From the UHGV virus genome UHGV-0856201: a DNA stretch of 61,875 bases. One strand, 5' to 3'. Of this stretch, positions 1,620 through 61,875 are shown piece by piece. The DNA comes from a virus. The notes under the pieces are model-generated. The model worked only from the letters and a program-made list of their open reading frames with translations, did no database searches and was not told the DNA's origin. Each line of letters opens with the position of its first letter. Within the stretch, counting starts at the first letter, position 1. Position numbers and translations under genes: made by a program.

Positions 1620-1684
1620 CAGATTTACCATACACATTTACAGACATACAACTAGTGGAACAAGTAAGATACAACCCATTCCTG

Positions 1685-2029: not shown

Positions 2030-2049
2030 GATTATGTCCTCCTTTGTTT

Positions 2050-3022: not shown

Positions 3023-3023
3023 G

Positions 3024-3527: not shown

Positions 3528-3554
3528 TGTTTGATTCCTCAGTGTGTTTCGTTC

Positions 3555-3605
3555 GTGACAAATGTTAGTGTGACCGCTTGCAATGTGTCAAGAATTATTT
3601 TAAAC
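3555..3605 (-). promoter_or_regulatory. conserved phage early promoter (copy 2)
   Basis: tgtcaagaattattttaaa; -35 TTGACA at 3586-3591 (minus); drives dut operon. Confidence 0.6.
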
Positions 3606-3634
3606 TTCTGTCAACGTTAACCAATGAGGAATAA

Positions 3635-8673: not shown

Positions 8674-9189
8674 ATGGATCCGAACATCAGAGTTGCTACA
8701 GACGAATTCATTCGTCGCGCCCGTAAAATTCACGGTGATCGTTACGACTACTCATTCAGCATTGTTGAAGATAGTTCCAGCACCGTGGTTATTATTGATC
8801 GTGAAACTAACACAGTGTTCTTTCAGGTCGTCTCTGAACATCTGGACGGTGTTGAACCAGTAACCACTGCTGTTGAACCAGTAACCACTGCTGTTGAACC
8901 AGTAACCACTGCTGTTGAACCAGTAACGACTACTGTTGAACCAGTAACGACTACTGTTGAACCGGTAACGACTGCTGTTGAACCAGTAACCACTGCTGTT
9001 GAACCAGTAACGACTACTGTTGAACCGGTAACGACTGCTGTTGAACCGGTAACGACTGCTGTTGAACCGATCAAGAATCTTTCTGAGATATTCGGTAACG
9101 TTGTAAACAGCGTGTATCACCAGTGCAATTATTCATCTGAAATGTTAGAATTTAGTCATGTTAAAACAATACGAGGACAATCCCCGTGA
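8674..9189 (+). CDS. repeat-containing protein (VEPVTTA x ~10)
   Basis: N-terminal FIRRARKIHGDRYDYS shared with T5orf172 paralogs; central 21-bp in-frame tandem repeats. Confidence 0.5.
   Translation: MDPNIRVATDEFIRRARKIHGDRYDYSFSIVEDSSSTVVIIDRETNTVFFQVVSEHLDGVEPVTTAVEPVTTAVEPVTTAVEPVTTTVEPVTTTVEPVTTAVEPVTTAVEPVTTTVEPVTTAVEPVTTAVEPIKNLSEIFGNVVNSVYHQCNYSSEMLEFSHVKTIRGQSP
8851..9070 (+). repeat. 21-bp tandem repeat (~10 units) inside CDS
   Basis: gttgaaccagtaac(c/g)act(g/a)ct repeated head to tail. Confidence 0.9.
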
Positions 9190-33969: not shown

Positions 33970-34881
33970 TCAGTAACCGTTACCGTTGAGAAAATTCGGG
34001 GCCGGGGTGGTCATTACCATATAACCGTTAGCGATCAGTTGTTCATCGTTCCAACCTTGCGTAATAAACTGTTCGTAAGTTGCACCACCTGCTTTTTCAG
34101 TCATTACCTTCACAGGTGCTGCCGCTGCTACAGGTGCTGCCGCTGGTGTAGGCGCTGCTACAGGTGCTGCCGCTGGTGTAGGCGCTGCTACAGGTGCTGC
34201 CGCTGGTGTAGGCGCTGCTACAGGTGCTGCCGCTGGTGTAGGCGCTGCTACAGGTGCTGCCGCTGGTGTAGGCGCTGGTGTTACGCCGATCGGACGTGCA
34301 CCTTCAGGCATTGCAGGAGCCGCACCGAACACAGAGGCAGGGGCCGGACCGGAAATGATTTCTTCACCTGCATAAAGCAATTGCGCCATTTCCATGTTGA
34401 TATATACACCAGCCTGATTACCTGTACGACCGTTTGCAACAGATGATCCGCTGATACGGTAGTAATAACCTTTTTTCGCCAGATTTTTATCAATAACTGG
34501 CTGGTACGCTGCGTTATAAACCGGACACGCGTCAATAGCCACGTTGCGTGAGAAACCAATTACCCAGTGACCAGCATAACCAGTTTTACTCGCATGTTTC
34601 GGATCGTCACCGTTAATAATTTTCCATGCGAAAGTAGGTTGTTGTGGTTCGCCGTTCACATAGTGTGAGTTAGCCGCTCGCATGATGGCCTGGAACACCG
34701 CACCAAGTTCACCTTGTTCTTCCCACCAGTTCGCAGCTGTTTTAGGAAATGCCAGACCAACCCACCAGTTATGTTTTTCAGGTGCTAACGGTTTATTTTC
34801 GTGGTCATGAGTGTTGATATCGAAAAAAGAACCGCCAACCAGACGACCAACCGGAGTTACAAAAGATTCTTTCTGTGCCAT
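33970..34881 (-). CDS. putative ssDNA-binding / replication accessory protein with Pro/Ala repeat linker
   Basis: 303 aa; between nuclease and polymerase; AAPVAAPTPA x5; C-terminal YEQFITQGWNDEQLIANGY. Confidence 0.4.
   Translation of the reverse strand: MAQKESFVTPVGRLVGGSFFDINTHDHENKPLAPEKHNWWVGLAFPKTAANWWEEQGELGAVFQAIMRAANSHYVNGEPQQPTFAWKIINGDDPKHASKTGYAGHWVIGFSRNVAIDACPVYNAAYQPVIDKNLAKKGYYYRISGSSVANGRTGNQAGVYINMEMAQLLYAGEEIISGPAPASVFGAAPAMPEGARPIGVTPAPTPAAAPVAAPTPAAAPVAAPTPAAAPVAAPTPAAAPVAAPTPAAAPVAAAAPVKVMTEKAGGATYEQFITQGWNDEQLIANGYMVMTTPAPNFLNGNGY
34115..34280 (-). repeat. 30-bp tandem repeat (5 units) inside CDS
   Basis: ggtgctgccgctggtgtaggcgctgctaca repeated in frame. Confidence 0.9.
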
Positions 34882-46664: not shown

Positions 46665-47468
46665 TTATTGACCCATCATATCTTTATACATCATCAAAAC
46701 AACATCATCCGGCATATTATCTACATCGCAATGCGGGTTGTGTGATAACGCATACAACCTGATTTTCTCCTTCAAATCGCTGACATCGACTACAGGTGCT
46801 TCCACTCGTGCTACAGGTGCTTCCACTCGTGCTACAGGTGCTTCCACTCGTGCTACAGGTGCTTCCACTCGTGCTACAGGTGCTTCCACTCGTGCTACAG
46901 GTGCTTCACAAACCATCACGTTAAACGGTGTCCCGGTGTCTTCGTATTTTTCAAGCAAATCGACCATTACATTTACACATTCCGGGATCCATCCCCGGCG
47001 CAAACCATTCTGAATCCAACTGTCAGTAATTGTGTGTTCATTTAAATTCCTGCGTAACACGTATCTTGCACATTCAAAATTACCACACATCGCCTCAAAC
47101 CGTGTCCACACGTCGTGACCGTGAACAGCTTCCAGGATCTGTGAATCAACGTATCTGACACGTTGCCAGTAGTTATTAGCAAAACGCCTGTGTGGTAATT
47201 TCTGACGCAGTTCGGTAACCGGTATTGTGTGTTTAAGAACAATGTTTTCGTCAGAATGTTGTACTGACAAGGGTGACAGTGTGAAGTCAGTAATCTCTTC
47301 AAGAATAATACTGATCGTTTCATATTTAGGATGAAACCTACCGCTTAACCATTGGTTGTAACGACCAACAGTTACCTTAACACCTCGACGATTAAGGTAT
47401 TCAACAGCATTTTGTACCCCGCCTTTTAAATCTATCAATTCGTCTAAAAGGTTCTTTTTCATTATCAC
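46665..47468 (-). CDS. hypothetical protein with EAPVARV x6 repeat
   Basis: 267 aa; HTH-like N-terminus; adjacent to iteron-rich region. Confidence 0.5.
   Translation of the reverse strand: MIMKKNLLDELIDLKGGVQNAVEYLNRRGVKVTVGRYNQWLSGRFHPKYETISIILEEITDFTLSPLSVQHSDENIVLKHTIPVTELRQKLPHRRFANNYWQRVRYVDSQILEAVHGHDVWTRFEAMCGNFECARYVLRRNLNEHTITDSWIQNGLRRGWIPECVNVMVDLLEKYEDTGTPFNVMVCEAPVARVEAPVARVEAPVARVEAPVARVEAPVARVEAPVVDVSDLKEKIRLYALSHNPHCDVDNMPDDVVLMMYKDMMGQ
46788..46915 (-). repeat. 21-bp tandem repeat (6 units) inside CDS
   Basis: tccactcgtgctacaggtgct repeated head to tail. Confidence 0.9.
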
Positions 47469-48072: not shown

Positions 48073-48708
48073 ATGAAAATTTCAGACCGGGCTAAAAGGG
48101 CTGCTCTGGAGTTAACAACAGATCAACTCCGTTTCGCTAACCTGTGGTTAGATCGTGTCAATAACGGCTTCAGCAACGCTCAGTGCGTCTTACACGCTTA
48201 TCCGGGGCATAAAGACCCTGACGCAGCTAAAGTCACCGCACACCGCCTCCTGTCGAATACAAAGGTGTTGAACTATCTGGACGCGATGGGGAGTCATGCG
48301 CTTGAGTCTGTCGGGGAATCGTTAACGAGTCGTGTCGAGTGGTGGAAACGAGCGGCAAGCACGGCTGAAGAATTACTGGAACCGTATTGTCAGCGCGTTA
48401 TCGTCCCTGGCGAAGACGACACAGAAGCGAAACACCTGTGGGTGAACAGTACCGACGATATCCCCAGCCATCTGCAACAGTACGTAGTTTGCTACAAACG
48501 TTACATGCTGGGCGGATATATTCTGGTGACGCGTGAATTGTTCGATCCGAAAACTCGTGCAAAAGCGTCTGAACAACTGGATAAGATCACCGGGAACAGT
48601 ATCGACCGTGTGGAATTGTCTGGCGTGGTTGGTAACGTGGTTCAGAGTGTTCCTGAAGGTGCAACTATCGACGACATCGCGCAACTGTACCAGAAAGCAC
48701 TTAAATAA
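48073..48708 (+). CDS. terminase small subunit
   Basis: Start MKISDRAK; N-terminal DNA-binding-like region (LTTDQLRFANLW...NAQCVLHAY) resembles Terminase_2 family. Confidence 0.55.
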   Translation: MKISDRAKRAALELTTDQLRFANLWLDRVNNGFSNAQCVLHAYPGHKDPDAAKVTAHRLLSNTKVLNYLDAMGSHALESVGESLTSRVEWWKRAASTAEELLEPYCQRVIVPGEDDTEAKHLWVNSTDDIPSHLQQYVVCYKRYMLGGYILVTRELFDPKTRAKASEQLDKITGNSIDRVELSGVVGNVVQSVPEGATIDDIAQLYQKALK

Positions 48709-52692: not shown

Positions 52693-52753
52693 TCTGTTAC
52701 CACCCGTCACCCGTGGTAAACTGTACAGAACAATTACAAACGGACCGATAACC

Positions 52754-54517
52754 ATGAATAAGTTTACTGGAAATATTCATAATTACCCGCGCTGGCGTGA
52801 TGCCTACGCAAACGACGAACGTATCTGGCGAAAAGGTCAGCCACGACCGGATTACAAACAGTGTTACATTGACCGTATTAACCTGTTAAATCGTATGCGC
52901 ACGGATCGGGCAATTGTCCCGGTACTGAAAAAGTATTACGAAACAAACCCTGTAGCGTTCATTCTCGACTGGGCGTTTACTTATGACCCGCGTAACGTTG
53001 GTACTGAATACCCGCCAAACATGCCTTTCTGCCTTTTCGAACGTCAAATCGACATGGTTCAGTTTGTTTACGAAGCGCTTGAAGACAAAGAAAAGGGGCT
53101 TTGGGAAAAATCGCGAGATTATGGTGCGACCTGGGTAGCCTGTGGTTTGTCCGTGTGGGCGTGGTTGTATCGTCCTGGTTCGTCAGTCGGCTGGGGTTCA
53201 CGTAAAGAACAGCTTGTCGATAAACTGGGTGACCCGGATAGTATTTTTGAAAAGATTCGCCAGATTATCCGCGCATTACCACCGGAATTACGTCCTATTA
53301 GTCTGCGTGAAAAAGACCATCTGGTTTACACGAAATGTATCAACCCTGAAAACGGTGCGACAATTACTGGTGAAGCTGGCGATAACATCGGTCGTGGTGG
53401 TCGTAAATCTGTTTATTTTTTGGACGAAGCAGCACACGTAGATCGTCCTGAACTGATTGAAGCGTCGTTGTCAGCTAACACCAACGTTCGAATTGATATC
53501 AGTTCCGTTAACGGTGTTGGTAACGTTTTTTATCGCAACCGTAAAGCTGGTCTGGAATGGGAACCTGGCAAGAAATTACCCCGTGGTAAATTGCGTGTCA
53601 TGGTTCTGGACTGGCGTGATCACCCGGCTAAAGACGACGAATGGTATAAACGAGAAAAACAATCGTTCGCTGAAAAGGGTTTACAGCATATTTTCGCACA
53701 GGAAGTTGACCGCGATTATGCAGCTGCTGTCCAGGGTGTACTGATTAAAGCTGAATGGGTACGTGCTGCTTTTGACGCTTTCCGTGACACAGAATGGCGC
53801 AAAGCTAACGGACTACTTACACCAACAGGTCAACGTATCGCCGGACAGGACGCAGCAGACGGTGGTGAAGACGCAAGCGCACTGGTAATTGCTCACGGTG
53901 TATTCCTGACACATCTGCAACTTGACCACAGAGGCGCTGAACTGGCTGCACCAGGGATGTTGACGATGGCTAATATGCTGGGTGTTGATGAATACTGGTA
54001 CGAAGTTAACGGTGTTGGTACAGGCGTTAAAGTAGCGGCAAACGACCGGAAAGATACTTTACGCTTCCGTGTGCGCCCGTGGTTACCGAATGGAAAAGTT
54101 GTGGATCCGGGTGGTGATATTATTGGTGGTACAAAACCTGGTGACAAAGACCGTAAATCAAACAAAGATTATTTCTCAAATTATAAAGCACAAGCATCGT
54201 GGGCGTTACGCCTGCGTTGTCAGCGAATTTATAAATGGTATGTGGAAGGTCAACCACAGGATCCGGACGAAATCATTCTGATTGATCCGTCACTGGAAAA
54301 CGCACAACGGTTAGAAGCTGAGTTAAGTCAGCCAACGTATACCAGTAACGGTGCCGGGAAGATTGTGATCGACAAGAAACCAAACGGAAGTAAGTCACCA
54401 AACTTTTTCGATGCTGCGGTTATTGCACTATCACCAAAACGCACTGAATTTGTCGAAGAACCATTTACTGGTGGTGTGAACCCTGTTGGTACTCCTGAAT
54501 ACGGTGACATTTTTTAA
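52754..54517 (+). CDS. terminase large subunit
   Basis: 587 aa; Walker B-like VYFLDEAAH; size and position before portal; followed by strong terminator. Confidence 0.65.
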   Translation: MNKFTGNIHNYPRWRDAYANDERIWRKGQPRPDYKQCYIDRINLLNRMRTDRAIVPVLKKYYETNPVAFILDWAFTYDPRNVGTEYPPNMPFCLFERQIDMVQFVYEALEDKEKGLWEKSRDYGATWVACGLSVWAWLYRPGSSVGWGSRKEQLVDKLGDPDSIFEKIRQIIRALPPELRPISLREKDHLVYTKCINPENGATITGEAGDNIGRGGRKSVYFLDEAAHVDRPELIEASLSANTNVRIDISSVNGVGNVFYRNRKAGLEWEPGKKLPRGKLRVMVLDWRDHPAKDDEWYKREKQSFAEKGLQHIFAQEVDRDYAAAVQGVLIKAEWVRAAFDAFRDTEWRKANGLLTPTGQRIAGQDAADGGEDASALVIAHGVFLTHLQLDHRGAELAAPGMLTMANMLGVDEYWYEVNGVGTGVKVAANDRKDTLRFRVRPWLPNGKVVDPGGDIIGGTKPGDKDRKSNKDYFSNYKAQASWALRLRCQRIYKWYVEGQPQDPDEIILIDPSLENAQRLEAELSQPTYTSNGAGKIVIDKKPNGSKSPNFFDAAVIALSPKRTEFVEEPFTGGVNPVGTPEYGDIF

Positions 54518-54524
54518 ACAGTGT

Positions 54525-54556
54525 GGCGGGATTATTCCCGCCCGTTTTCTTTTTTT
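54525..54556 (+). terminator. rho-independent terminator after terL
   Basis: ggcgggattattcccgcc followed by gttttcttttttt. Confidence 0.7.
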
Positions 54557-54600
54557 AATTCTTGACAAATTACATTATAAATGTTTGTAAATTATCTGTT
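54548..54600 (+). promoter_or_regulatory. conserved phage early promoter (copy 14)
   Basis: ttaattcttgacaaattac; -35 TTGACA 54563-54568; -10 not clearly assigned. Confidence 0.5.
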
Positions 54601-54680
54601 AGGCTAATGTAACGCGTTTATACTCCTGTAGGTAACCGATCGGTTACAGTTAATTAACATTCTCTCACAGGAGTTTCAAC

Positions 54681-55376
54681 ATGTCTGACATGACTTTAGT
54701 TCCCACTGGCGGTTTCGGCGGTGAAGCTGGCGCGGCTGCACTTGGTGGTGGTATCGGCGGTCTTATCGGTTCCTGGTTCGGTAACGGCTGGGGTGGCGGT
54801 GGTGGCTGGGGTGGTCGCGGTAACTTTGGTGGTCCTGTAGAAGTTCAAGCCTCTGTAGATACCAACGCTATTCTGCAAGCCATCAATAACGGTGCTCTTC
54901 AGACCATTCAGGGTCAGAATGGTACAAACCTGACCGTTGAACGCGCTGCAGCTTCCACTTTTAACGGTATCACTCAACAGAACACACAAAACCTGCTGGC
55001 ATCTGTACAAGGTTTTGCAGGTCTGAACACGCAGATTCAACAGGGTACTAACACTGTGACCAATGCGATCTGTGCATCTGAAACTGCGGCACTGACTCGT
55101 TCTTTCCAGGCACAGTTAGCGGCTGAGAAGTGTTGTTGCGAAACCAACCTGAACATTGAACGTCAGGCAGAAGCAACTCGTGCACTGATCCGTGACCAGT
55201 TCGCACAGTCTCAGGCTGTTCTGATTTGTGACCTGAAATCTCAGATTCAAACCCGTGACTTCCAGTTGTCTCAATTATCACAAACGTCTCAGTTGGAGTG
55301 CAAAATTAACCAGGTCGATCAGCTTATTAACTTCAAGCTGCCTACTCCGCAAACTCCACCGACTGGCTGCTGCTAA
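54681..55376 (+). CDS. Gly-rich / Gln-Asn-rich protein with Cys motifs
   Basis: N-terminus GGFGGEAGAAALGGGIGGLIGSWFGNGWGGGGGWGGRGNFGG; CCC internal and C-terminal GCC; RBS aggag. Confidence 0.5.
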   Translation: MSDMTLVPTGGFGGEAGAAALGGGIGGLIGSWFGNGWGGGGGWGGRGNFGGPVEVQASVDTNAILQAINNGALQTIQGQNGTNLTVERAAASTFNGITQQNTQNLLASVQGFAGLNTQIQQGTNTVTNAICASETAALTRSFQAQLAAEKCCCETNLNIERQAEATRALIRDQFAQSQAVLICDLKSQIQTRDFQLSQLSQTSQLECKINQVDQLINFKLPTPQTPPTGCC

Positions 55377-55426
55377 TTGGTCAACTAAGCGCCTCTGTAC
55401 GGGGCGCTTTAACAGGAGATGAGAGT

Positions 55427-55786
55427 ATGCATTACAAACCGTATTACGTTATCAAAAAAGACGATGATGACGATGAAGAGGAAGATGTAGAAATTCATCA
55501 CCACCATCATTATCACCACGGGCATCACCCGGACACGATGGGAGTATTTCATCATGATAGCTCTGTTAGCGAACATGGTTCAGTTATGGCCCATGTTAAA
55601 GCACGTATGGATAACCCTCCTTCGACTTGGGCGTCGTACCACGATAAGCCCGGCGGGATGATGTCCATTGTTGAAATGGAATATCGCGAACTAATGGAAG
55701 AAAAAGCCGAAGGTTCGACGTCTGGTATTAAAAAAGAGCTAACAGATCTGGCTGCAGCCTGTATCAACGCGCTTAAAAAGATGTAA
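55427..55786 (+). CDS. His-rich acidic protein
   Basis: DDDDDEEEDVEIHHHHHYHHGHH near N-terminus; 119 aa. Confidence 0.45.
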   Translation: MHYKPYYVIKKDDDDDEEEDVEIHHHHHYHHGHHPDTMGVFHHDSSVSEHGSVMAHVKARMDNPPSTWASYHDKPGGMMSIVEMEYRELMEEKAEGSTSGIKKELTDLAAACINALKKM

Positions 55787-55802
55787 CTAACAGGAAACCG
55801 AC

Positions 55803-56306
55803 ATGCAGAATATTAACGCAGGTATGGGTGTCACCCAGTTTAACGGCATGAAACCGCGAAGCACTATTAACATTGGTGGTGTGGAGTGGTCATTACGTCG
55901 GGATGCCACTGACTCAACAACAATGTTTCCTCATCCGAAGGTAAGCTGGCTTAACGCTGGTTGTGAACCGATGGGTGATGGTCGTTTTCATTACTGTTGG
56001 ATTTTGGGTGTGATTCCCCCGACACCGGGGACAATCGAACGACCGGTTAATGTGATGTATGTTGGTTTCCATCAATTTAAAATTAATATTGCACCTAATT
56101 CAATTAGTCAGGCTGATTTGGACAGGATGCATGTTTATGTCAGCGACACTTCACATTTTGCTGGTGAATTTGTCAGTAAGTTTTTAGGTACAGAACCTGA
56201 ACCTGTGGAAACTCGTGAAAATATCAGCCCGTGGCCCCCGATGAATGATCCTCGTGAGCAACCAAAAGTAGCCAAAAATAAGGTAAACGAAGATGACGAA
56301 GAATGA
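55803..56306 (+). CDS. hypothetical protein
   Basis: 167 aa, acidic C-terminus. Confidence 0.4.
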   Translation: MQNINAGMGVTQFNGMKPRSTINIGGVEWSLRRDATDSTTMFPHPKVSWLNAGCEPMGDGRFHYCWILGVIPPTPGTIERPVNVMYVGFHQFKINIAPNSISQADLDRMHVYVSDTSHFAGEFVSKFLGTEPEPVETRENISPWPPMNDPREQPKVAKNKVNEDDEE

Positions 56307-56547
56307 AGGGGTAGACAAAGTAGTCGAAAGTCTGGGGTTACGCGCACACGTAATCGTAGACGAAGGTCACAGTCAAGAAGCGATCATGAAGTCGGCATTT
56401 AACGATTTTAAAGCGTTGGGTTCAATGAGTGGGATCATGGGAGTGATGGCTACCGGGAAATTAAGTCAGCAACAGTTAGATCTGGCACAACGTATCGCTG
56501 TGAAAGTAATTGCCGTTTTAGGTCTTAAAGAGTCAGAAAAAGCGTAA
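56293..56547 (+). CDS. hypothetical protein
   Basis: 84-aa ORF overlapping previous stop. Confidence 0.35.
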   Translation: MTKNEGVDKVVESLGLRAHVIVDEGHSQEAIMKSAFNDFKALGSMSGIMGVMATGKLSQQQLDLAQRIAVKVIAVLGLKESEKA

Positions 56548-56560
56548 AAAGGGGGTTATT

Positions 56561-56725
56561 ATGTGTTGTAGAACATCATGTTGTCTGGGAAGTCCTGCTA
56601 CGCAATTTGGTCTTCTTCAGTCACAGATTGCACATACTCAGGCCGTTTTCAGAGGGTTTACCAGTCCGTTCATAGTACCGTTACAGTTTTCCGCGTTCAC
56701 GTTTAGGCCTTTTGTATTTTACTGA
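56561..56725 (+). CDS. small Cys-rich peptide (54 aa)
   Basis: Strong RBS aaaaagggggt; MCCRTSCCLGSPATQFG...; ends at terminator. Confidence 0.3.
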   Translation: MCCRTSCCLGSPATQFGLLQSQIAHTQAVFRGFTSPFIVPLQFSAFTFRPFVFY

Positions 56726-56733
56726 TCGACTTT

Positions 56734-56759
56734 GCCCCGGAACTGTCCGGGGCTTTTTT
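56734..56759. terminator. bidirectional rho-independent terminator
   Basis: gccccggaactgtccggggc followed by TTTTTT. Confidence 0.7.
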
Positions 56760-57040
56760 CAACGTCTGAAAGATGAAAGAACAGCGAGGCTAGCAGAACC
56801 TAAACCGAATATGACGGCGTATGTTAGTTGATGTTGAAGTTTCACAAAACCGTAATAATCGCTTTGTAATTCCACGATGTCAAAAGCAATTGAAAAACTG
56901 GTTACCAGCAACATGATTGAAAGAACACGAATCAGAGCAACTGCTAACCCTATCACCCCTTGTTCTTTTTTCTCAGTTGTAATAACGACAACAATCATTA
57001 ACAGAAGTGAAAAAGCAATGTACATGTATTCCATAATCAT
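56759..57040 (-). CDS. small membrane protein
   Basis: 93 aa with two hydrophobic helices. Confidence 0.4.
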   Translation of the reverse strand: MIMEYMYIAFSLLLMIVVVITTEKKEQGVIGLAVALIRVLSIMLLVTSFSIAFDIVELQSDYYGFVKLQHQLTYAVIFGLGSASLAVLSSFRR

Positions 57041-57201
57041 TAGTCCCGATAAACTTCAGCACACCCGTAATTTTTACCAGGGTTGTAAGCCTGTTCAGCT
57101 TGTAAAGCACCCTGACACTGTTCGAACGTCATGATGCGTTCTGTCACAGGTTCAATAGCCACACCGTATAGAACAAGCACCAGTACATAACCAATTAACA
57201 T
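57040..57201 (-). CDS. small membrane/secreted protein (53 aa)
   Basis: MLIGYVLVLVLYGVAIEPV...; TAATG-type overlap with downstream gene. Confidence 0.3.
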   Translation of the reverse strand: MLIGYVLVLVLYGVAIEPVTERIMTFEQCQGALQAEQAYNPGKNYGCAEVYRD

Positions 57202-57530
57202 TCTCTTAGAGTCTCCGCCCAGTCCAGACCATGTAGGTTTACAGTTGCAAGCCTCACTTTTGGGATACCGTAACGACGATTATCCCAAAATTCATCACAG
57301 AGTTCTGGTTCACTAAAATACCCGTAAACAACCCCGTAACTATTCGTGGCTATATAGTCAATATCTTCAGGAACAGTTAAAGACAAACCAAAATAATTGA
57401 CCGTTTTATACACGTCTGCACTAGCCAGTGTCATTTTACAATCTGGTGCTTCTTCGTGGATATCCCACGATTTACCACAATGCGAACACTGATATTCATC
57501 ATTACAGCGAATAGCGTTTACATGATTCAT
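57195..57530 (-). CDS. hypothetical Cys-containing protein
   Basis: CNDEYQCSHCGKSWDIHEEAPDC; 111 aa. Confidence 0.4.
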   Translation of the reverse strand: MNHVNAIRCNDEYQCSHCGKSWDIHEEAPDCKMTLASADVYKTVNYFGLSLTVPEDIDYIATNSYGVVYGYFSEPELCDEFWDNRRYGIPKVRLATVNLHGLDWAETLREC

Positions 57531-57542
57531 GATTATTCTTCC

Positions 57543-57878
57543 TCAGTTACGGATGATACCGTTGATGGAATGTGAATTAGCACATGACTTTGTAGTAATA
57601 TTTCCATTAACTGTTTTGATATTACCGCTATCCCCAGTGACAGAAACATTACCATTAACCGTTTTGATATCTCCACTGTTTCCTGAAATGTTAACTTCAC
57701 CGTTAGTCGTTTCAATGGATTCGACATCACCATAAACACTGATCGATATGTTACCAACCAGATTACCATCAACCTGTATGCCATCAACAATTACTTTATC
57801 ACCGTTAATTTCAAATTTACGCCCTGTAAATTCACGACCGTCAATTATTACTTTACCATTACTCATATTTATTTTCAT
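57543..57878 (-). CDS. beta-solenoid repeat protein (bactofilin-like)
   Basis: Repeats VIVDGIQVDGNLVGNISISVYGDVESIETTNGEVNISGNSGDIKTVNGNVSVTGDSGNIKTVNGNI. Confidence 0.45.
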   Translation of the reverse strand: MKINMSNGKVIIDGREFTGRKFEINGDKVIVDGIQVDGNLVGNISISVYGDVESIETTNGEVNISGNSGDIKTVNGNVSVTGDSGNIKTVNGNITTKSCANSHSINGIIRN

Positions 57879-58195
57879 TTAACTGTCTCCGGTACAAACC
57901 ACATTGACGCAAGATATGCACACCCGGCAATTTTATGTTCGTGTTTAGGTTCGAAACTACCCAGGATCACTTTGATATGTGCGTGAGCATCTTTAAAGTT
58001 CACACCTTCAACAGCAACTGCGTATTCTTTCAGACCGTTGAAAAACCATTTGCTGATCCACTGATTCCACGGGTTAGAATTTTCGAAAAATTCTTTCGGA
58101 ATACTACCCATCGTCGGGAGGAATTCAGCAATGTTTTTAGGTCCAAAAGCAATATCCAGTTGTGTAATATTTTCATTCGGTTTCATAGTCATCAC
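57875..58195 (-). CDS. hypothetical protein
   Basis: 106 aa; first gene after promoter copy 15. Confidence 0.4.
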   Translation of the reverse strand: MMTMKPNENITQLDIAFGPKNIAEFLPTMGSIPKEFFENSNPWNQWISKWFFNGLKEYAVAVEGVNFKDAHAHIKVILGSFEPKHEHKIAGCAYLASMWFVPETVK

Positions 58196-58209
58196 CCTTC
58201 GTTCATTTG

Positions 58210-58260
58210 ATGACTAAAGCATAATCGCAAGTTTGCAATCCGTCAAGAATTATTTTAACA
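58210..58260 (-). promoter_or_regulatory. conserved phage early promoter (copy 15)
   Basis: ccgtcaagaattattttaacacc; -35 TTGACG 58241-58246 (minus). Confidence 0.6.
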
Positions 58261-58328
58261 CCGTGCAAAAAAACCATCACTGATATAACATACGTTAAGA
58301 ACCGTAAACCGTATGGAGCCTGTAAAAC

Positions 58329-59684
58329 ATGGCTGATCAACAATTCGAACAACTAGCCGTTGCCGGGTACAGTCGAACAGGCAACCAGGTAAACGACGAT
58401 TTCCTTCCTAAACTAAACGGTAAACAAGGCCGTCGTATTCTTCGTCAGATGGCTGAGAACGACGAAACTATTGGCGGTGTGTTGTTCGCCATGAGTAGCG
58501 TTTATCGTTCTGTACAGTGGATTTTTGACCCGTCTGACAAAGATGATCCAGAAGCTATCCGTTATTCAGAATGGTTACAGGATGCTATTGAAAATAAAAT
58601 GGGTGATCCGCGTGGTGCACTCCCGGATGATACCTGGTCTGCGTTCGTTCAGACATGGACAGACGTTGATGTATTCGGCTGGGGTTGGTATGACATCTGG
58701 GTCAAAGATCTTGATGACGGCACTGTGGGTATTGCCCGTCTGGTTCCTGTAGCACCTGAAACGCTTGCTGGCTGGGATATTGAAGAACCGACAGGTTATG
58801 TTCGTGGTATTTATCAACGTTCACCTAATCAGGGTACAACGACGTTAATCACACGTGACCGTTCGCTTCATTTGATTTCAAGTCCGAATAAAGGTAACCC
58901 GGAAGGTTTATCACTGCTGCGCACAGCTTATCGTCCGTGGTATTACAAAAAAGTGAATATGGAAATCGAATCCATACTTGCCGAACGTGGTACAGGGTTC
59001 CCGGTAATTACTGTTAACGCAGATATTAAGAAAGCGGCTAATGACCCTAATGTTCCTGAACAACAGCGTCAGGCAGCACAGGCGATGATTGATAACTATG
59101 AAAATATCGTTGCTAATATCAAACGCAATGAACAATCAGGACTGGTGATTTATTCTAAACCTTATATCACGGGTTACGATAACGAAACAGGTGTTACCAC
59201 GTACGGTGGTGAACAACAGGTGAAGCTGGAATTCGTTACACCTAACCAGACCAGTTCCGTGGATATTGACCGGACGATTAAACGCCTGGATACCAGTATT
59301 GCCCGTGCGTTACTGGCTGATTTCATGTTTTTCGGAACGGGTGGTAATACCGGGAATAACGCCAACCTGGGTAGTCGTACTGAATTATGGATCCGCGCAA
59401 TGCAATCACGTATTGACAGCATTGTAGAATGTGTTAATCGTCAGTTGATACCGCAGTTATGGTCGTTAAACGCATTTCCTGATGAATACCGCCCGTCGAT
59501 TCGCGCCGGATCGATCAGTAAAGACAGTATCGAAACGTTGACCACTGCACTTGCACGACTTGCACAAGCTGGCGCACCTGTATTCCCGGATCCAGACCTT
59601 CAGGAATACGTATATAAAGAGGCGGGTCTACCAATTACGGGGATTGATAAAGCAGGGGACGGATTACCGTCTATTGACGACTGA
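58329..59684 (+). CDS. putative portal protein
   Basis: 451 aa; downstream of terL and, across the circular join, upstream of the Mu-F-like gene. Confidence 0.5.
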   Translation: MADQQFEQLAVAGYSRTGNQVNDDFLPKLNGKQGRRILRQMAENDETIGGVLFAMSSVYRSVQWIFDPSDKDDPEAIRYSEWLQDAIENKMGDPRGALPDDTWSAFVQTWTDVDVFGWGWYDIWVKDLDDGTVGIARLVPVAPETLAGWDIEEPTGYVRGIYQRSPNQGTTTLITRDRSLHLISSPNKGNPEGLSLLRTAYRPWYYKKVNMEIESILAERGTGFPVITVNADIKKAANDPNVPEQQRQAAQAMIDNYENIVANIKRNEQSGLVIYSKPYITGYDNETGVTTYGGEQQVKLEFVTPNQTSSVDIDRTIKRLDTSIARALLADFMFFGTGGNTGNNANLGSRTELWIRAMQSRIDSIVECVNRQLIPQLWSLNAFPDEYRPSIRAGSISKDSIETLTTALARLAQAGAPVFPDPDLQEYVYKEAGLPITGIDKAGDGLPSIDD

Positions 59685-59690
59685 ATGAAA

Positions 59691-59712
59691 AAGGGACCGT
59701 TACTGGTCCCTT
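59691..59712. terminator. bidirectional terminator hairpin
   Basis: aagggaccgttactggtccctt between convergent genes. Confidence 0.55.
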
Positions 59713-60060: not shown

Positions 60061-60187
60061 TCCTGTCAGTTAACATACTTCGCGATCAGTTTATCACAGT
60101 CCTCGCGACAGGTAGCATACTTAAACAGGTCACTTGCTGCTTCTGCCCGGTAGTCAGTATCAATAGTGTAATGTTCATTGACATAGT
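60061..60187. repeat. 127-bp exact repeat of phage start (1681-1807); circular-contig overlap
   Basis: 60061-60187 identical to 1681-1807; length 127 equals a common assembler k-mer size. Confidence 0.9.
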
Positions 60188-60287
60188 NNNNNNNNNNNNN
60201 NNNNNNNNNNNNNNNNNNNNNNNNNNNNNNNNNNNNNNNNNNNNNNNNNNNNNNNNNNNNNNNNNNNNNNNNNNNNNNNNNNNNNNN
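60188..60287. other. 100-N scaffold gap
   Basis: Run of exactly 100 N. Confidence 1.
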
Positions 60288-60414
60288 CGTGAATTGTTCG
60301 ATCCGAAAACTCGTGCAAAAGCGTCTGAACAACTGGATAAGATCACCGGGAACAGTATCGACCGTGTGGAATTGTCTGGCGTGGTTGGTAACGTGGTTCA
60401 GAGTGTTCCTGAAG
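60288..60414. repeat. 127-bp exact repeat of phage 48532-48658 (inside terS)
   Basis: Identical to terS internal segment; diverges into anellovirus sequence at 60415. Confidence 0.9.
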
Positions 60415-61454
60415 ACAAACAACAACTAGAGCAACACGCAGGAAACCCTTTTACATCAGAATATTTAACTAATCCAGAAGGACTATTCACAAGCACAAAA
60501 GACCCTACAAACTTTTTTCTACAATTTACAGAAAAAACACAAGCACTTGAAACACATAAAACAACATTAAACTACAATCACCTACAACACCCATTAATAT
60601 TAGAAACAAGATACAATCCAAATAAAGACCAAGGCCTACATAACAAAGCATATGTACTACCAGTAAACAAACCAGGAGTTAACTGGACACCACCAAATGA
60701 TGAAGACTTAATATTAGAAGGATTTCCAATATGGTTACTAATATTTGGATTTATAGACTACATTAAAAAAACTCAAAAGCTAATTAATGTAGACGAAAAA
60801 CATGTACTATGCATACAAACATCTAACACAAACCCAAAATGGGACCAACCTATTATACCACTCTCATATACATTTGAAGAAGGACACAGCCCTTACAGCA
60901 AACAATTAAACCCATATGACACAGACAAATGGTATCCACAAATACAATACCAAGAAGAAGCCATAAATGATATTATAAAATGTGGACCAGGAACAGCTAA
61001 AATAGGAGACAGACTTAGTGAAGAGATTAAATGTGAATATGAATTTTATTGGAAATGGGGAGGACATCCACCTAAAATGCTAACTATAGACAATCCTGCA
61101 CAACAGGGAACATATCCCATACCCCGTAACAGCATCACATCAAATTCGTTACAGAATCCAGCAACACCACCAGAGTACTTCTTATACAGCTTCGACGAAA
61201 GACAGGGACTGCTTACAAAAACAGCTGCAAAAAGAATTAGAAAAGACTGGGAATCTAAAGACTATGTATCTGACTTTACAGAATCAACAAAAGAAGTCCC
61301 AATGCAAACACTCCAAACATCATCCGACGAAACATCGGACTCGGAAAAAGAAGAGGAGACACTACTCCAGCAGCTCCACCGACAGCAACAGCACCAGAAG
61401 CAGCTCAAGCGCCGAATTCTCAGATTAATGCAGAAAAATCCAAATTTAGAATAA
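60415..61454 (+). CDS. Anellovirus ORF1 C-terminal portion (partial)
   Basis: A-rich, Thr/Asn/Lys-rich ORF ending in Ser/Glu-rich and basic tail; composition matches 510-1619. Confidence 0.65.
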
Positions 61455-61658
61455 TACAATGTACTCAATATGTTAAACTGTTTGATGATAAAACTGTAAA
61501 AAATAGACGCATGAATAAGTATGAAATGGAACATGAAAAAGATGTAGCTAAAGCCTTTTGTAGACCACCAAAAAAATTCTTACTTGATGTACCATACTAC
61601 CCATGGGTAGACATCCCAGAACCACTTGTAAACTTTCACCTGAGATATAACTTTGATG

Positions 61659-61664
61659 AATAAA
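61659..61664 (+). promoter_or_regulatory. polyadenylation signal (AATAAA)
   Basis: aataaa ~200 nt downstream of ORF1 stop, as in anelloviruses. Confidence 0.5.
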
Positions 61665-61749
61665 CAAGGCCAACAATATTCACTTAGTGGTGTCAGTTTA
61701 TATAAGTTAAAACCTAAATAAACATCCGTTACCAATTGAAATTTGTTGG

Positions 61750-61840
61750 CGCCAAAAGGGGGCTCCGCCCCCTTTAACCCCCAAGGGGGCTCCGCCCCCT
61801 TAAACCCCCAAAGGGGGCTCCGCCCCCTTAAACCCCCGGA
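61750..61840. repeat. Anellovirus GC-rich region with three ~27-bp repeats
   Basis: gggggctccgccccc at 61758, 61785 and 61813, each followed by ttaaaccccc. Confidence 0.8.
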
Positions 61841-61875
61841 AACCACAAAATTTGCATTGCCGACCACAAACGAAC

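What the first reader, a model, noticed from the sequence alone, without database searches (positions are those of the whole stretch)
54548..56760. Moron cassette after terL: Gly-rich/Cys protein, poly-His acidic protein, small Cys-rich peptide
A separate transcription unit (promoter copy 14 to the strong terminator at 56734-56759) is inserted between terL and portal. It encodes a protein with an extreme Gly/Trp-rich N-terminus and a Q/N-rich body containing CCC and a C-terminal GCC, a protein with DDDDDEEEDVEIHHHHHYHHGHH, two unknown proteins, and a 54-aa peptide with two CC pairs behind a very strong RBS. The composition is reminiscent of secreted, metal-binding or bacteriocin-like proteins; function unknown.
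Basis: seen in the sequence. Interest (0 to 1): 0.55.

Follow-up and report, generated by a model that had tools for sequence, protein, structure and literature searches.

The report
Conserved phage accessory operon, function unknown
This stretch is a real, separately transcribed five-gene cassette that many unrelated enterobacterial phages carry in the same gene order; its proteins show no secretion or bacteriocin features and form an uncharacterised, dispensable module that most likely acts inside the infected cell.

Summary
Between terL and portal of a 9NA-like (Nonanavirus/Sashavirus) E. coli phage lies a unit bounded by the terL terminator, a copy of the phage's repeated UP/-35 promoter, and a strong bidirectional terminator. 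It encodes five proteins with the reported compositions: A 231 aa, B 119 aa, C 167 aa, D 84 aa, E 54 aa.

It is not specific to this phage. A-B-C-D keep the same order in about 40 loci from Nonanavirus, Seuratvirus/Nonagvirus, T1-like Hanrivervirus, Yersinia phages P400 and PY100, and eiAU-like phages, at different genome positions. The cassette is absent from Carvajevirus, truncated in 9NA and frameshifted in AVIO78A, so it is a mobile, dispensable accessory operon.

- A belongs to a large unnamed family (128 clusters at 50% identity; more than 530 IMG/VR loci; Lachnospiraceae genomes). It has an N-terminal glycine zipper that is a true transmembrane helix in distant members, a helical body and an almost invariant CCC.
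- B is a remote MazG/HisE-type NTP pyrophosphohydrolase with a His/Asp/Glu-rich extension.
- C has no recognisable fold relative.
- E is a real gene (variable codon positions 1/4/22).

There are no signal peptides and no export or immunity genes, so the bacteriocin reading is not supported. Function is unproven. My best guess is an early, membrane-associated host-takeover or exclusion module.

The parts
54525..54556 (+). terL intrinsic terminator (stem 54525-54542 plus T-run). It isolates the cassette from terL transcription.
   Evidence: -14.7 kcal/mol, z = -3.5, 0 of 200 shuffles as stable. Annotated as a terminator in AVIO78A.
54545..54592 (+). Cassette promoter: A/T-rich UP-like stretch, -35 TTGACA (54562-54567), 17-nt spacer, TG (54582-54583), weak -10 TTGTAA (54585-54590). 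It is one of 17 copies of the phage's AATTCTTGACrrATTAC promoter family.
   Evidence: (D11 copy at 54542-54573), and conservation in 6 genomes. AVIO78A annotates a promoter here. The -10 is non-canonical and was not listed by the consensus scan.
54622..54674 (+). 5' leader in which ACTCCTGT (54622-54629) is the exact complement of the Shine-Dalgarno region ACAGGAGT (54667-54674). It encloses the palindrome GTAACCGATCGGTTAC (54632-54647). Possible translational control of A.
   Evidence: conserved; Sergei shows an A-U to G-U change in the inner stem. In the fold these segments pair, but z is only -1.85.
54681..55376 (+). Gene A, 231 aa. Features in order: invariant N-terminal MSDMTL.P; glycine zipper G22-x3-G26-x3-G30-x3-G34 followed by a Gly/Trp tract; Q/N/T-rich helical body; invariant CCC151-153 and C183; C207 co-varying with the C-terminal PTPxTPPTGCC tail.
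   Evidence: phrog_9288, E 2.5e-128; all-helical model, pLDDT 51.
55388..55410 (+). A-B intergenic hairpin (GCGCC...GGCGC) with a short T-run. A partial terminator or attenuator that should lower B-E expression relative to A.
   Evidence: -18 kcal/mol, z = -3.0. One search shows it is conserved, with a different loop and a longer T-run in Sasha and Sergei. Annotated as a terminator.
55427..55786 (+). Gene B, 119 aa. A variable acidic and His-rich N-terminal part (DDDDDEEEDVEIHHHHHYHHGHH) precedes a conserved C-terminal domain of about 65 aa. That domain has invariant E85, E88 and E104 and near-invariant D107 (EMEYxEL ... KELTDLAAA). Remote MazG/HisE-type all-alpha NTP pyrophosphohydrolase.
   Evidence: phrog_9157; best PDB profile hit 2p06, E 0.16, aligning both motifs; 8 of 31 members hit PRA-PH and 4 of 31 hit MazG, best E 7.6e-4 and 1.9e-3. 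KurtStettler's homologue is annotated 'putative pyrophosphatase'.
55803..56306 (+). Gene C, 167 aa. A beta-rich globular domain (residues about 20-130; invariant W29, D34, D37, H44, C65, W66, H90, D105, R108, H110) followed by a variable acidic disordered tail. No recognisable fold relative.
56293..56547 (+). Gene D, 84 aa. Small protein with no match to any known family; overlaps C by 14 nt, which suggests translational coupling.
   Evidence: (phrog_7239).
56561..56725 (+). Gene E, 54 aa. MCCRTSCCLGSPATQ... with an aromatic-rich C-terminus ending in Y or W. A real gene, restricted to the Nonanavirus, Seuratvirus and yong3 lineages.
   Evidence: variable columns 1/4/22 by codon position; ORF intact in 6 genomes; Seuratvirus homologue shares CCLGSPATQ.G.LQ.Q; phrog_25697, E 1.9e-7. 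Annotated as gp15 in 9NA.
56734..56759 (.). Strong intrinsic terminator that closes the cassette. It also lies at the end of the convergent minus-strand block 58195-56759.
   Evidence: -17.3 kcal/mol, z = -3.3. Stem conserved while the loop varies.

Best explanation
The region is one copy of a horizontally mobile, dispensable accessory operon shared by many virulent phages of Enterobacterales. Its core is the fixed gene order A-B-C-D; E is an add-on in some lineages.

Shown or directly read from sequence:
- A host-type promoter of the phage's repeated family drives a leader whose anti-Shine-Dalgarno segment can mask A's ribosome-binding site.
- A hairpin after A should attenuate read-through, so A would be made in excess over the closely packed B, C, D and E (C and D overlap).

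Inferred roles of the proteins:
- A is the anchor component. Its N-terminal glycine zipper inserts into, or lies on, the inner membrane; the same segment is an unambiguous transmembrane helix in distant family members. It carries a long helical, probably oligomeric stalk held or metallated through the invariant CCC and the Cys-rich tail.
- B is a small MazG/HisE-type nucleotide pyrophosphohydrolase with a His/Asp/Glu-rich metal-binding extension.
- C, D and E are family-specific partners.

Inferred function: the module works inside the infected cell, early, to modify the envelope and/or the nucleotide pool in the phage's favour. Superinfection exclusion or counter-defence are the likeliest uses. 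It is neither a secreted toxin nor an essential virion part.

Confidence by level: about 0.85 for 'conserved mobile dispensable operon'; about 0.6 for 'A is membrane-associated and B is a MazG-type hydrolase'; about 0.3 for the exclusion/counter-defence role. The overall figure of 0.5 is for the statement as a whole.
For: Synteny:
- tblastn finds A-B-C-D in the same order in L001, L002, L004, L005, L007-L010 and L012-L045. These are Nonanavirus, Seuratvirus/Nonagvirus, Hanrivervirus, P400, PY100 and eiAU-type loci, with identities down to 32-45%.
- HMM searches extend A-B-C to L046/L047 and A-B to L048-L054.

Mobility and dispensability:
- Neighbours differ between groups: terL/portal here; a lateral tail fibre in KurtStettler and KarlJaspers; head genes in P400; early genes in PY100.
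- Absent in Carvaje; A, B and the first 28 codons of C are missing in 9NA; AVIO78A has a 38-nt frameshifting deletion in A.
- No C homologue in 185,579 representative bacterial and archaeal genomes.

Transcription unit:
-.
- Other copies of the same promoter family sit directly upstream of the block that corresponds, ORF length for ORF length, to Sergei's gp75-gp72 DNA-polymerase operon. This argues for early or middle expression.

Protein A:
- Family conservation.
- 65 of 74 full-length representatives keep CCC. All have a hydrophobic Gly-rich segment at about residues 15-35; 31 of 74 reach a KD15 of 1.6 or more, with examples such as IIILILFFLIFGMGG.
- The family profile's best PDB matches are influenza HA2 fusion peptide plus helix A (E 0.01-0.2) and the SlyB glycine zipper (E 0.08). 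The HA2 match is order-dependent: 19.4 bits against 0 of 2000 full shuffles and 1 of 2000 block shuffles.

Protein B.

Against a lysis role: a complete lysis cassette (holin/antiholin, endolysin, i- and o-spanin) lies elsewhere in Sergei.
Against: - No experiment or annotation gives a function. A, C, D and E have no Pfam, NCBIfam or PADLOC match, and their PHROGs are 'unknown function'.
- In this phage A's zipper is only weakly hydrophobic (KD19 1.14). The Sasha and Sergei records note transmembrane domains for several neighbouring genes but give none for A's homologues.
- The AF2 model of A is low-confidence (pLDDT 51), so oligomeric state and topology are inferred.
- B's Pfam hits are all below the gathering thresholds, and its PDB match has E 0.16.
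- The cassette's -10 element is poor, and timing was not measured.
- In three phage groups the cassette lies next to lateral tail-fibre genes. In KurtStettler A is fused in frame to a tail-fibre protein with an S74-like C-terminal chaperone region (domain read by eye). This leaves room for a fibre-related or virion role.
Confidence: 0.5

Rival explanations
1. Tail-fibre accessory or chaperone, or a minor virion module. A (with B-D) would help assemble or decorate lateral tail fibres, or would itself be a fibrous, disulfide-stapled virion protein. PJ16 labels its A homologue 'lateral tail fiber chaperone'. BASEL labels the fused KurtStettler ORF 'putative lateral tail fiber chaperone' and KarlJaspers' A homologue 'putative sugar-binding protein'.
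For: - A lies directly downstream of a lateral tail-fibre gene and its S74-like chaperone in Hanrivervirus. It follows a lateral fibre gene in Seuratvirus, and a 755-aa protein with an S74-like C-terminus (read by eye) in T5-like Epseptimavirus.
- In KurtStettler, A's residues from about 15 onward are fused in frame after an S74-like chaperone region.
- A is predicted to be a long helical rod. Its Pro-rich tail ending in GCC resembles interchain cystine knots; this is recalled, not tested.
- In Firmicutes relatives the A-like gene is followed by a BclA_C-like trimeric domain protein (E 5.5e-8).
Against: - In Nonanavirus, P400 and PY100 the cassette is far from fibre genes. 9NA-like phages use tailspikes (PMC4153490).
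- The fusion is an exception. In 28 of 32 A-containing loci examined, A is a separate ORF beginning M(S/T)DM..; a 29th (L038) begins MADMTL. KurtStettler is the fusion, and AVIO78A and phage 36 carry frameshifts.
- In an S74-type protein the part from the chaperone domain onward is cleaved off (established biology of that domain; the domain here was read by eye, not scanned). The fused A would therefore be released, not kept in the particle.
- The PJ16 label is most simply an annotation transferred from the fused ORF (inference).
- B looks like an enzyme of nucleotide metabolism.
- The promoter is of the class that also drives replication genes.
Confidence: 0.15
2. An anti-defence island. The genes would be independent counter-defence factors that merely travel together. 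B would hydrolyse signalling or alarmone nucleotides. C's acidic tail and the other small proteins would inhibit host immunity proteins.
For: - Accessory, variable presence among close relatives.
- Early-type promoter.
- B belongs to the MazG/HisE superfamily.
- All proteins are small orphan families, as anti-defence proteins typically are.
Against: - Gene order A-B-C-D is kept down to 32-45% identity across phage families. C and D overlap, and the B-C and D-E gaps are short. This points to one functional unit rather than independent genes.
- This overlaps with the best explanation and is not strictly exclusive of it.
Confidence: 0.2
3. Lysis-related accessory. A would be a holin-, antiholin- or spanin-like membrane protein (bitopic, with a large helical Cys-containing domain like T4 T or lambda Rz) that tunes lysis timing or membrane fusion.
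For: - Architecture: short N-terminal stub, membrane segment, then a helical domain of about 180 aa with conserved Cys.
- Fusion-peptide-like N-terminus.
- By my reading of the translated ORFs (no family scan), A-like genes lie near an endolysin/Rz-like pair in L047 and a holin-like ORF in L068. In L056 an amidase (strong Pfam hit) and a weak, sub-threshold XhlA-like match lie downstream.
- In T4 the holin gene t also follows the tail-fibre genes (recalled knowledge).
Against: - 9NA-like phages already have a complete cassette of two holin/antiholin genes, an endolysin and i/o-spanins elsewhere.
- No sequence similarity to any holin or spanin family.
- 9NA lyses its host without A or B (it forms clear plaques; PMC4153490).
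- The cassette has an early-type promoter rather than sitting in the lysis operon.
Confidence: 0.1
4. One reading: secreted, bacteriocin-like or metal-scavenging proteins released to act on other cells.
For: - Gly-rich N-terminus plus C-terminal Cys, as in microcin V or colicin translocation domains (recalled resemblance).
- The conserved N-terminus ends in GG (MSDMTLVPTGG).
- His-rich B and Cys-rich E.
- Lysis would release the proteins anyway.
Against: - No signal peptide or strong transmembrane segment.
- No ABC exporter, C39 peptidase or immunity gene in or beside the cassette in any of about 40 loci.
- A is 24 kDa.
- The hydrophobic positions of MSDMTLVPTGG do not fit the double-glycine leader pattern (read from sequence).
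- The cassette is confined to virulent phage genomes, with no bacterial copies of C.
Confidence: 0.03

Closest known systems
Phage morons and early exclusion genes placed among structural genes (lambda bor/lom, HK97 gp15, T5 llp, T1/phi80 cor)
   Same: An independent promoter-to-terminator unit inserted between virion genes. Dispensable, patchily distributed among relatives, and found at different positions in different phages. In several lineages it lies beside receptor-binding or fibre genes.
   Different: Those examples are single genes with a lipoprotein or clear membrane signal and a known target. Here there are four to five co-ordered genes, no lipobox or signal peptide, no sequence similarity to any of them, and no demonstrated exclusion phenotype.
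MazG / HisE (PRA-PH) all-alpha NTP pyrophosphohydrolases, including phage MazG-like proteins
   Same: B's conserved C-terminal domain carries the two acidic helix motifs (E-x-x-E ... E-x-x-D). These align with AF_0060 (PDB 2p06) and give weak PRA-PH and MazG Pfam hits.
   Different: The conserved domain is only about 65 residues. All scores are below the curated thresholds. There is an unusual poly-Asp/Glu and poly-His extension. Substrate and activity are unknown, and no structure was predicted.
Glycine-zipper membrane segments and class I viral fusion peptides (influenza HA2 N-terminus; SlyB/17-kDa-antigen glycine zippers)
   Same: A G-x3-G-x3-G-x3-G run with interspersed Ile/Leu/Phe/Trp is followed by a Q/N/S/T-rich helix. 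The A-family profile ranks HA2 chains first in the PDB, and the match depends on residue order.
   Different: E-values are only 0.01-0.2, so this is a resemblance and not homology. A's zipper is not at a free N-terminus. There is no evidence of trimerisation, cleavage or fusion activity, and the body of A is unrelated to HA2.
T4 holin T and lambda Rz-type i-spanins
   Same: A short N-terminal stub, one membrane segment, a large helical C-terminal domain with functionally conserved cysteines, and a gene that often lies near tail-fibre or lysis genes.
   Different: No sequence similarity. A separate complete lysis cassette exists. The cassette has an early-type promoter, and A is dispensable.
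Class II microcins and colicin translocation domains (for example microcin V)
   Same: Gly-rich, Trp-containing N-terminal region and C-terminal cysteines. This is a compositional resemblance only.
   Different: The size is wrong. There is no leader or exporter, no immunity gene, and no homology.

Membership tests
Moron / autonomous accessory transcription unit | Own promoter upstream and terminator downstream, separate from the flanking late genes | tested here: met
   terL terminator at 54525-54542; promoter-family copy with TTGACA at 54562-54567; terminator at 56734-56753. Caveat: the -10 is weak, and transcription was not measured.
Moron / autonomous accessory transcription unit | Present in some and absent from other closely related genomes; dispensable | tested here: met
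   Absent in Carvaje, truncated in 9NA, frameshifted in AVIO78A. Located at other positions in other phage groups.
MazG/HisE all-alpha NTP pyrophosphohydrolase superfamily (protein B) | Conserved acidic metal-binding motifs E-x-x-E and E-x-x-D on two helices | tested here: met
   E85, E88 and E104 are invariant and D107 is at least 90% conserved in 31 sequences. They align to the equivalent motifs of 2p06.
MazG/HisE all-alpha NTP pyrophosphohydrolase superfamily (protein B) | Significant match to the family profile (Pfam gathering score) | tested here: not met
   The window protein has no hit. Only 8 of 31 homologues hit PRA-PH and 4 of 31 hit MazG, all weak (best E 7.6e-4 and 1.9e-3). The PDB profile hit has E 0.16.
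MazG/HisE all-alpha NTP pyrophosphohydrolase superfamily (protein B) | Four-helix-bundle fold and NTP hydrolysis | not tested
Class II bacteriocin / microcin locus | Small precursor with a double-glycine leader, a dedicated ABC exporter with C39 peptidase, and an immunity gene | tested here: not met
   A is 231 aa. No transporter, peptidase or immunity gene lies in or next to the cassette in any locus. No Pfam hit.
Sec/Tat-secreted protein or lipoprotein | N-terminal signal peptide or lipobox | tested here: not met
   No hydrophobic N-terminal h-region in A-E. The best KD19 values are 1.14 (A), 0.48 (B), 0.62 (C), 1.02 (D) and 1.07 (E). This was checked by hydropathy and by eye only; no dedicated predictor was available.
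Peptidase_S74 intramolecular-chaperone tail-fibre proteins ('lateral tail fiber chaperone' label) | C-terminal S74 autoproteolytic chaperone domain | tested here: not met
   The window's A has no Pfam hit. It aligns only to the portion after the S74-like region of KurtStettler's fused 511-aa ORF. The S74-like motifs in KurtStettler, KarlJaspers and rokbiter were read by eye and not scanned.
Holins and spanins | Membership of a holin or spanin family, and a position in the lysis cassette | tested here: not met
   No Pfam or PHROG lysis family. The complete lysis cassette is elsewhere in the syntenic Sergei genome.
Glycine-zipper membrane-inserting segment (protein A) | Consecutive G-x3-G repeats within a hydrophobic stretch long enough to span or enter a bilayer | tested here: inconclusive
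   G22, G26, G30 and G34 form the zipper. Hydrophobicity is marginal here (KD19 1.14) but is clearly transmembrane-like in 12-31 of 74 distant family members. Membrane association was not tested.
Class I fusion-protein-like architecture (HA2) | N-terminal fusion peptide on a trimeric coiled-coil stalk | not testable with these tools
   Only an order-dependent but weak sequence resemblance (E 0.01-0.2). The monomer model has low confidence, and no multimer prediction was available.
Known anti-phage defence or NCBI-named protein families | Match to a PADLOC or NCBIfam model | tested here: not met
   0 hits for A-E at E <= 1.

The most novel reading that the evidence does not exclude
Protein A would define a large, unnamed superfamily of phage and prophage membrane-active proteins. 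It is found in enterobacterial virulent phages and in Lachnospiraceae/Clostridia genomes and MAG contigs, with more than 530 loci in IMG/VR. The architecture would be fusion-peptide-like: a glycine zipper on an oligomeric helical stalk, locked or metallated by an invariant CCC. In Gram-negative phages it would have recruited a MazG-type nucleotide hydrolase and two orphan proteins into a fixed four-gene machine that remodels the inner membrane early in infection, for example to block DNA entry by competing phages or to sense and disarm membrane-linked defences. That would be a new kind of phage exclusion or counter-defence system rather than a variant of a known one.
Probability: 0.12. Interest if true: 0.75.

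Novelty: new variant of a known kind. Interest (0 to 1): 0.45.

Why it matters
Most phage genes still have no known function, and fixed multi-gene modules shared across unrelated phage families are the best place to look for new biology. This cassette is carried by model-collection phages that are easy to manipulate: BASEL Bas06 KarlJaspers, Bas22 KurtStettler and Bas82 KarinMuster. Its function is therefore directly testable. If A is a membrane-inserting, fusion-peptide-like protein working with a MazG-type hydrolase, it would add a new mechanism of phage-host or phage-phage conflict. It would also name a family with hundreds of members in gut viromes. On the practical side, the analysis corrects misleading labels in public records ('lateral tail fiber chaperone', 'sugar-binding protein') and shows that the 54-codon ORF E, often left unannotated, is a real gene.

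Tried and rejected
1. Family libraries. Pfam, NCBIfam and PADLOC scans of A-E gave nothing. PHROGs gave only 'unknown function' families.
2. PDB sequence and profile searches.
   - A1 and A5 gave only weak HA2 and SlyB-like N-terminal matches.
   - C and D gave noise.
   - The single-sequence search with B hit only His-tags of recombinant proteins, which I discarded as an artefact.
3. AlphaFold2 of A with a 33-sequence alignment gave pLDDT 51 and long helices only, too poor for a fold search.
5. Partner proteins of the Firmicutes-type A-like genes were compared with B, C and D by hhalign; they are unrelated. Only A is shared.
6. Spanin or holin idea: rejected as the primary reading, because a complete lysis cassette exists elsewhere.
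7. Fusion to an S74-like chaperone region as a general feature: rejected. It occurs in KurtStettler only; the other loci have a separate ORF.
8. Prophage or bacterial origin of the cassette: no C homologue in the representative genomes.
9. Literature. The 9NA genome note, both BASEL papers, the Sergei paper, the P400 paper and the 9g paper say nothing about these genes. The 9NA-like genomics paper (PMC6819911) and the PY100 virion-proteome paper (PMC2223727) are not held. One literature search was wasted on the plant genus Cajanus.
10. The search for related loci with the very diverse alignment A5 failed for lack of conserved stretches.

Full report
**What the window is.** The phage part of the window is a 9NA-like siphovirus of E. 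coli. Region 52700-59700 is 95-96% identical to Escherichia phages AVIO78A, KarinMuster (Bas82) and PJ16, and 86-91% identical to Salmonella phages Sasha, Sergei and 9NA. terL (52754-54517; weak Terminase_6N hit, phrog_2) and portal (58329-59684; Portal_Mu, E 7e-24) flank the region of interest.

**Checking the observation.**
- After the terL terminator (54525-54542) comes a copy of a repeated promoter element, TTTAATTCTTGACAAATTAC. It belongs to a family with 12 leftward and 5 rightward copies in the window.
- The other copies carry TTGAC(A/G), a 17-nt spacer and a TAnnnT -10, read from the sequences listed. This copy has a perfect -35 but only TG-n-TTGTAA at that spacing, so the consensus scan skipped it.
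- Five ORFs follow on the + strand: A (231 aa), B (119 aa), C (167 aa), D (84 aa, overlapping C by 14 nt) and E (54 aa).
- A strong hairpin with T6 follows at 56734-56759 (-17.3 kcal/mol, z = -3.3).
- The compositional oddities are as reported. Their recurrence in homologues shows they are selected features and not chance.

- A conserved hairpin with a short T-run lies between A and B (55388-55410; z = -3.0). Three related records annotate it as a terminator.
- In the 5' leader, ACTCCTGT (54622-54629) is the exact complement of the Shine-Dalgarno region ACAGGAGT (54667-54674). This is conserved in six genomes, although the fold as a whole is not exceptional (z = -1.85).

**E is a real gene.** Across six Nonanavirus/Sashavirus genomes the ORF stays intact. 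Its 27 variable columns fall 1/4/22 on codon positions 1/2/3. A Seuratvirus homologue keeps the motif CCLGSPATQ.G.LQ.Q and an aromatic C-terminus. Several public records leave E unannotated.

**The cassette is a conserved, mobile four-gene module.**
- tblastn of A-E against fetched loci shows A-B-C-D in the same order and orientation in several groups: Nonanavirus/Sashavirus, Seuratvirus and Nonagvirus (KurtStettler, JenK1/JenP type), T1-like Hanrivervirus (KarlJaspers and relatives), Yersinia phage P400, Yersinia phage PY100 (ORF29-32), eiAU-type phages and metagenomic contigs. That is about 40 loci, with identities falling to 32-45%.
- Profile searches extend A-B-C to L046/L047 and A-B to L048-L054.
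- The neighbours differ from group to group: terL/portal here; lateral tail-fibre genes in KurtStettler and KarlJaspers; head genes and early genes in P400; terL-side early genes and dam/ssb in PY100.
- The Klebsiella relatives (Carvaje) have no cassette between terL and portal.
- 9NA lacks A, B and the first 28 codons of C.
- AVIO78A carries a 38-nt deletion inside the Gly-rich coding part of A.
- T5-like Epseptimavirus phages have only an A-like sequence, apparently broken into pieces.
- No C homologue exists in one genome from each of 185,579 bacterial and archaeal species.

The 'moron' idea is therefore right in spirit, since this is an autonomous, dispensable and patchily distributed unit. 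But it is a coherent operon with a long evolutionary history, not a one-off insertion.

**Protein A.**
- Within the enterobacterial phages A is strongly conserved (alignment A1). Conserved features are the N-terminal MSDMTL.P, the zipper G22-x3-G26-x3-G30-x3-G34, CCC151-153, C183 in LICDLK, and the tail FKLPTPxTPP.
- C207 and the terminal GCC(GC) are gained and lost together.
- An exhaustive profile search found 128 representatives at 50% clustering, mostly full-length proteins of 200-290 aa. A scan of representative genomes found relatives in Lachnospira intestinalis and in many Clostridia and other gut MAG contigs.
- Family-wide features: a short acidic N-terminal stub; a Gly-rich hydrophobic segment at about residues 15-35; a variable number of QGFxGLN-type repeats; GYExRLAT; CCC (65 of 74); EGAxTRxLI; LCDAKxKIxxLExQ; and a Thr/Pro- or Cys/Gly-rich tail.
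- In 12-31 of the 74 members the hydrophobic segment is clearly a transmembrane helix, for example WVLIILFALIFGWGG. In the window's protein it is marginal (KD19 1.14).
- Flanking charges (N-side net -1.4; about one Arg on the C-side) weakly favour an N-out/C-in orientation.
- The AF2 model is all-helical but unreliable (pLDDT 51).
- No Pfam family covers the superfamily. It spans phrog_9288 and phrog_16490, both of unknown function.
- The family profile's best PDB matches are about 60 influenza HA2 chains. Profile positions 22-103 align to the HA2 fusion peptide plus the start of the stalk (E 0.01-0.2). The SlyB glycine zipper follows at E 0.08.
- A shuffle test shows the HA2 match depends on residue order and not only on composition: 19.4 bits, against 0 of 2000 full shuffles and 1 of 2000 block shuffles reaching that score. 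The HA2 test segment was typed in partly from memory. I treat the match as a functional resemblance (a membrane-inserting glycine-rich segment on a helical stalk), not as homology.

**Protein B.**
- The His/Asp/Glu-rich N-terminal part varies in length, but it recurs in several lineages.
- The C-terminal part of about 65 residues is conserved, with invariant E85, E88 and E104 and near-invariant D107 (EMEYxEL ... KELTDLAAA).
- The profile's best PDB match is AF_0060 (2p06), which I recall as a MazG-related structural-genomics protein. It aligns exactly these motifs, at E 0.16.
- 8 of 31 homologues give weak PRA-PH hits and 4 of 31 give weak MazG hits. BASEL annotates the KurtStettler homologue as 'putative pyrophosphatase'.
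- B is therefore most likely a minimal, divergent all-alpha NTP pyrophosphohydrolase with a metal-binding extension. It fails the curated thresholds, and its fold and activity are untested.

**Proteins C and D.**
- C folds with reasonable confidence (pLDDT 77) into a beta-rich domain with a disordered acidic tail.
- C has many invariant His, Cys, Asp and Trp residues.
- D is a small protein without matches.

**What the cassette is not.**
- *Not a bacteriocin or secretion locus.* There are no signal peptides, lipoboxes or strong transmembrane segments. No exporter, peptidase or immunity genes occur in any locus, and A is 24 kDa.
- *Not the lysis system.* Sergei, which is syntenic, has holin/antiholin, endolysin, holin/antiholin, i-spanin and o-spanin elsewhere.
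- *Not a tail-fibre chaperone.* The label on PJ16_015 most probably comes from KurtStettler's 511-aa ORF. There an N-terminal fibre-like part and a region I read by eye as a Peptidase_S74-type chaperone domain are fused in frame to A's residues from about 15 onward. In 28 of 32 A-containing loci examined, A is a separate ORF starting M(S/T)DM.. (a 29th starts MADMTL); AVIO78A and phage 36 carry frameshifts. Even so, the recurrent position just downstream of proteins with S74-like regions in Hanrivervirus, Seuratvirus and Epseptimavirus is real and unexplained.

**Distant A-family context.** In the Firmicutes-type loci A-like genes have different partners:
- a Gln/Pro/Tyr-rich protein and a protein of about 77 aa upstream;
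- a BclA_C-like protein downstream (E 5.5e-8, below the Pfam cut-off);
- a protein of about 220 aa and a small protein with a weak SprT-like match (E 8.7e-4, below the cut-off).

By my reading of the translated ORFs, these clusters sit near integrase-like or lysis-like genes. In L056, Pfam scans place the cluster directly after a terL and upstream of an amidase. These partners are unrelated to B, C and D. A is therefore the ancient core, and B-C-D are a Gram-negative-phage elaboration.

**Most likely mechanism.**
- *Shown.* The unit is autonomous. A is separated from B-E by an attenuator-like hairpin. C and D overlap, and the B-C and D-E gaps are short. The module is dispensable and mobile.
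- *Inferred, expression timing.* Copies of the same promoter family lie directly upstream of the leftward block at 36803-32033. The ORF lengths in that block equal those of Sergei gp75, gp74 and gp72 (DNA polymerase). This argues for early or middle, host-RNA-polymerase-dependent expression.
- *Inferred, protein roles.* A is membrane-associated through its zipper and oligomerises through its helical body, with CCC and the tail Cys as a metal or disulfide lock. B hydrolyses a nucleotide. C, D and E are partners.
- *Speculative, about 0.3.* The module protects the infected cell from competing phages, or from a host response that acts at the membrane or on the nucleotide pool.
- Rivals (fibre or virion accessory, independent anti-defence genes, lysis tuning, bacteriocin) are listed with their evidence in the rival-explanations section.

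**Novelty and interest.** These genes have been deposited many times as 'hypothetical protein', and I found no description of them in the papers I could read. The cross-family four-gene synteny, the size of the A superfamily, the MazG-type assignment of B and the coding status of E are, as far as these tools show, new observations. No function is demonstrated. This makes it a well-defined, experimentally accessible unknown rather than a surprise in itself; interest is about 0.45.

**Seen in passing.** The window is a chimeric scaffold.
- Positions 1-1679 and 60415-61875 are the two halves of an anellovirus ORF1 (Pfam TT_ORF1, E 5e-79 and 6e-39).
- The phage contig is 1680-60187, with an exact 127-nt terminal overlap, giving a circle of 58,381 bp.
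- An N-run at 60188-60287 follows, and then an exact copy of phage 48532-48658.

Noticed in passing
window 1-1679, 60061-60414 and 60415-61875: The window is a chimeric scaffold. The two flanks encode the N- and C-terminal halves of an anellovirus ORF1 (Pfam TT_ORF1, E 5e-79 and 6e-39). The phage contig (1680-60187) has an exact 127-nt terminal overlap (1680-1806 = 60061-60187), giving a circle of 58,381 bp. An N-run follows at 60188-60287, and then an exact copy of phage 48532-48658.
   Followed up: partly
window, 17 sites (e.g. 2077, 3580, 8293, 8595, 17767, 19714, 32005, 36853, 36916, 38638, 42209, 43758, 49086, 51043, 52666, 54542, 58235): A repeated promoter family, AAAATAATTCTTGAC(A/G)(A/G)ATTAC-N-TAnnnT, with an A/T-rich UP-like part: 12 copies read leftward and 5 rightward. 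The copies precede clusters of small genes and the DNA-polymerase operon, which suggests one early or middle regulon.
   Followed up: partly
window 54622-54674: The leader of gene A contains an 8-nt anti-Shine-Dalgarno sequence (ACTCCTGT) complementary to ACAGGAGT at the ribosome-binding site. It encloses the 16-nt palindrome GTAACCGATCGGTTAC. This is conserved in six related genomes and may be translational control or an operator.
   Followed up: partly
L004 (KurtStettler) 5011-6543; L001 (AVIO78A) 3480-4137; L003 (9NA) 2431-2996: Natural variants of gene A. KurtStettler has an in-frame fusion behind a tail-fibre-like protein with an S74-like chaperone region (read by eye). AVIO78A has a 38-nt frameshifting deletion in the Gly-rich tract. 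9NA has lost A, B and the first 28 codons of C. The public labels 'lateral tail fiber chaperone' (PJ16) and 'putative sugar-binding protein' (KarlJaspers) for A homologues look like unsupported annotation transfer.
   Followed up: yes
window 56759-58262 (minus strand): A convergent second accessory block of five small ORFs, driven by a promoter-family copy at about 58235-58262 and sharing the terminator at 56734-56753. It includes a 93-aa protein whose Sasha homologue is annotated with 3 transmembrane domains, a 111-aa protein of short beta-type repeats (57543-57878), and a 111-aa protein with a weak, sub-threshold double-zinc-ribbon match (57195-57530). Its gene content differs between related phages.
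   Followed up: no
L009 (Sasha) 2021-3571: Sasha carries a 516-aa gene inserted between terL and the cassette. It is annotated 'hypothetical protein' in the GenBank record; the RefSeq record lists a homing endonuclease in this region. This shows the terL-portal gap is an insertion hotspot.
   Followed up: no
L056-L125 and L127-L156 (Firmicutes-type loci), e.g. L061 4022-7120, L056 4209-7647: Distant A-like genes sit in a different conserved cluster: a Gln/Pro/Tyr-rich protein, a protein of about 77 aa, the A-like protein with a clear transmembrane helix and a Cys/Gly-rich tail, a BclA_C-like protein, a protein of about 220 aa, and a small protein with a weak, sub-threshold SprT-like match. All are uncharacterised. 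In L056 the cluster also lies right after terL.
   Followed up: partly
window 8808-9122, 34085-34307, 46769-46928: In-frame-length tandem repeats with 21-nt, 9/12/18-nt and 21-nt periods. Sergei's record annotates 'direct tandem repeat regions' within gp73 and gp91, which appear to be the counterparts of the latter two.
   Followed up: no
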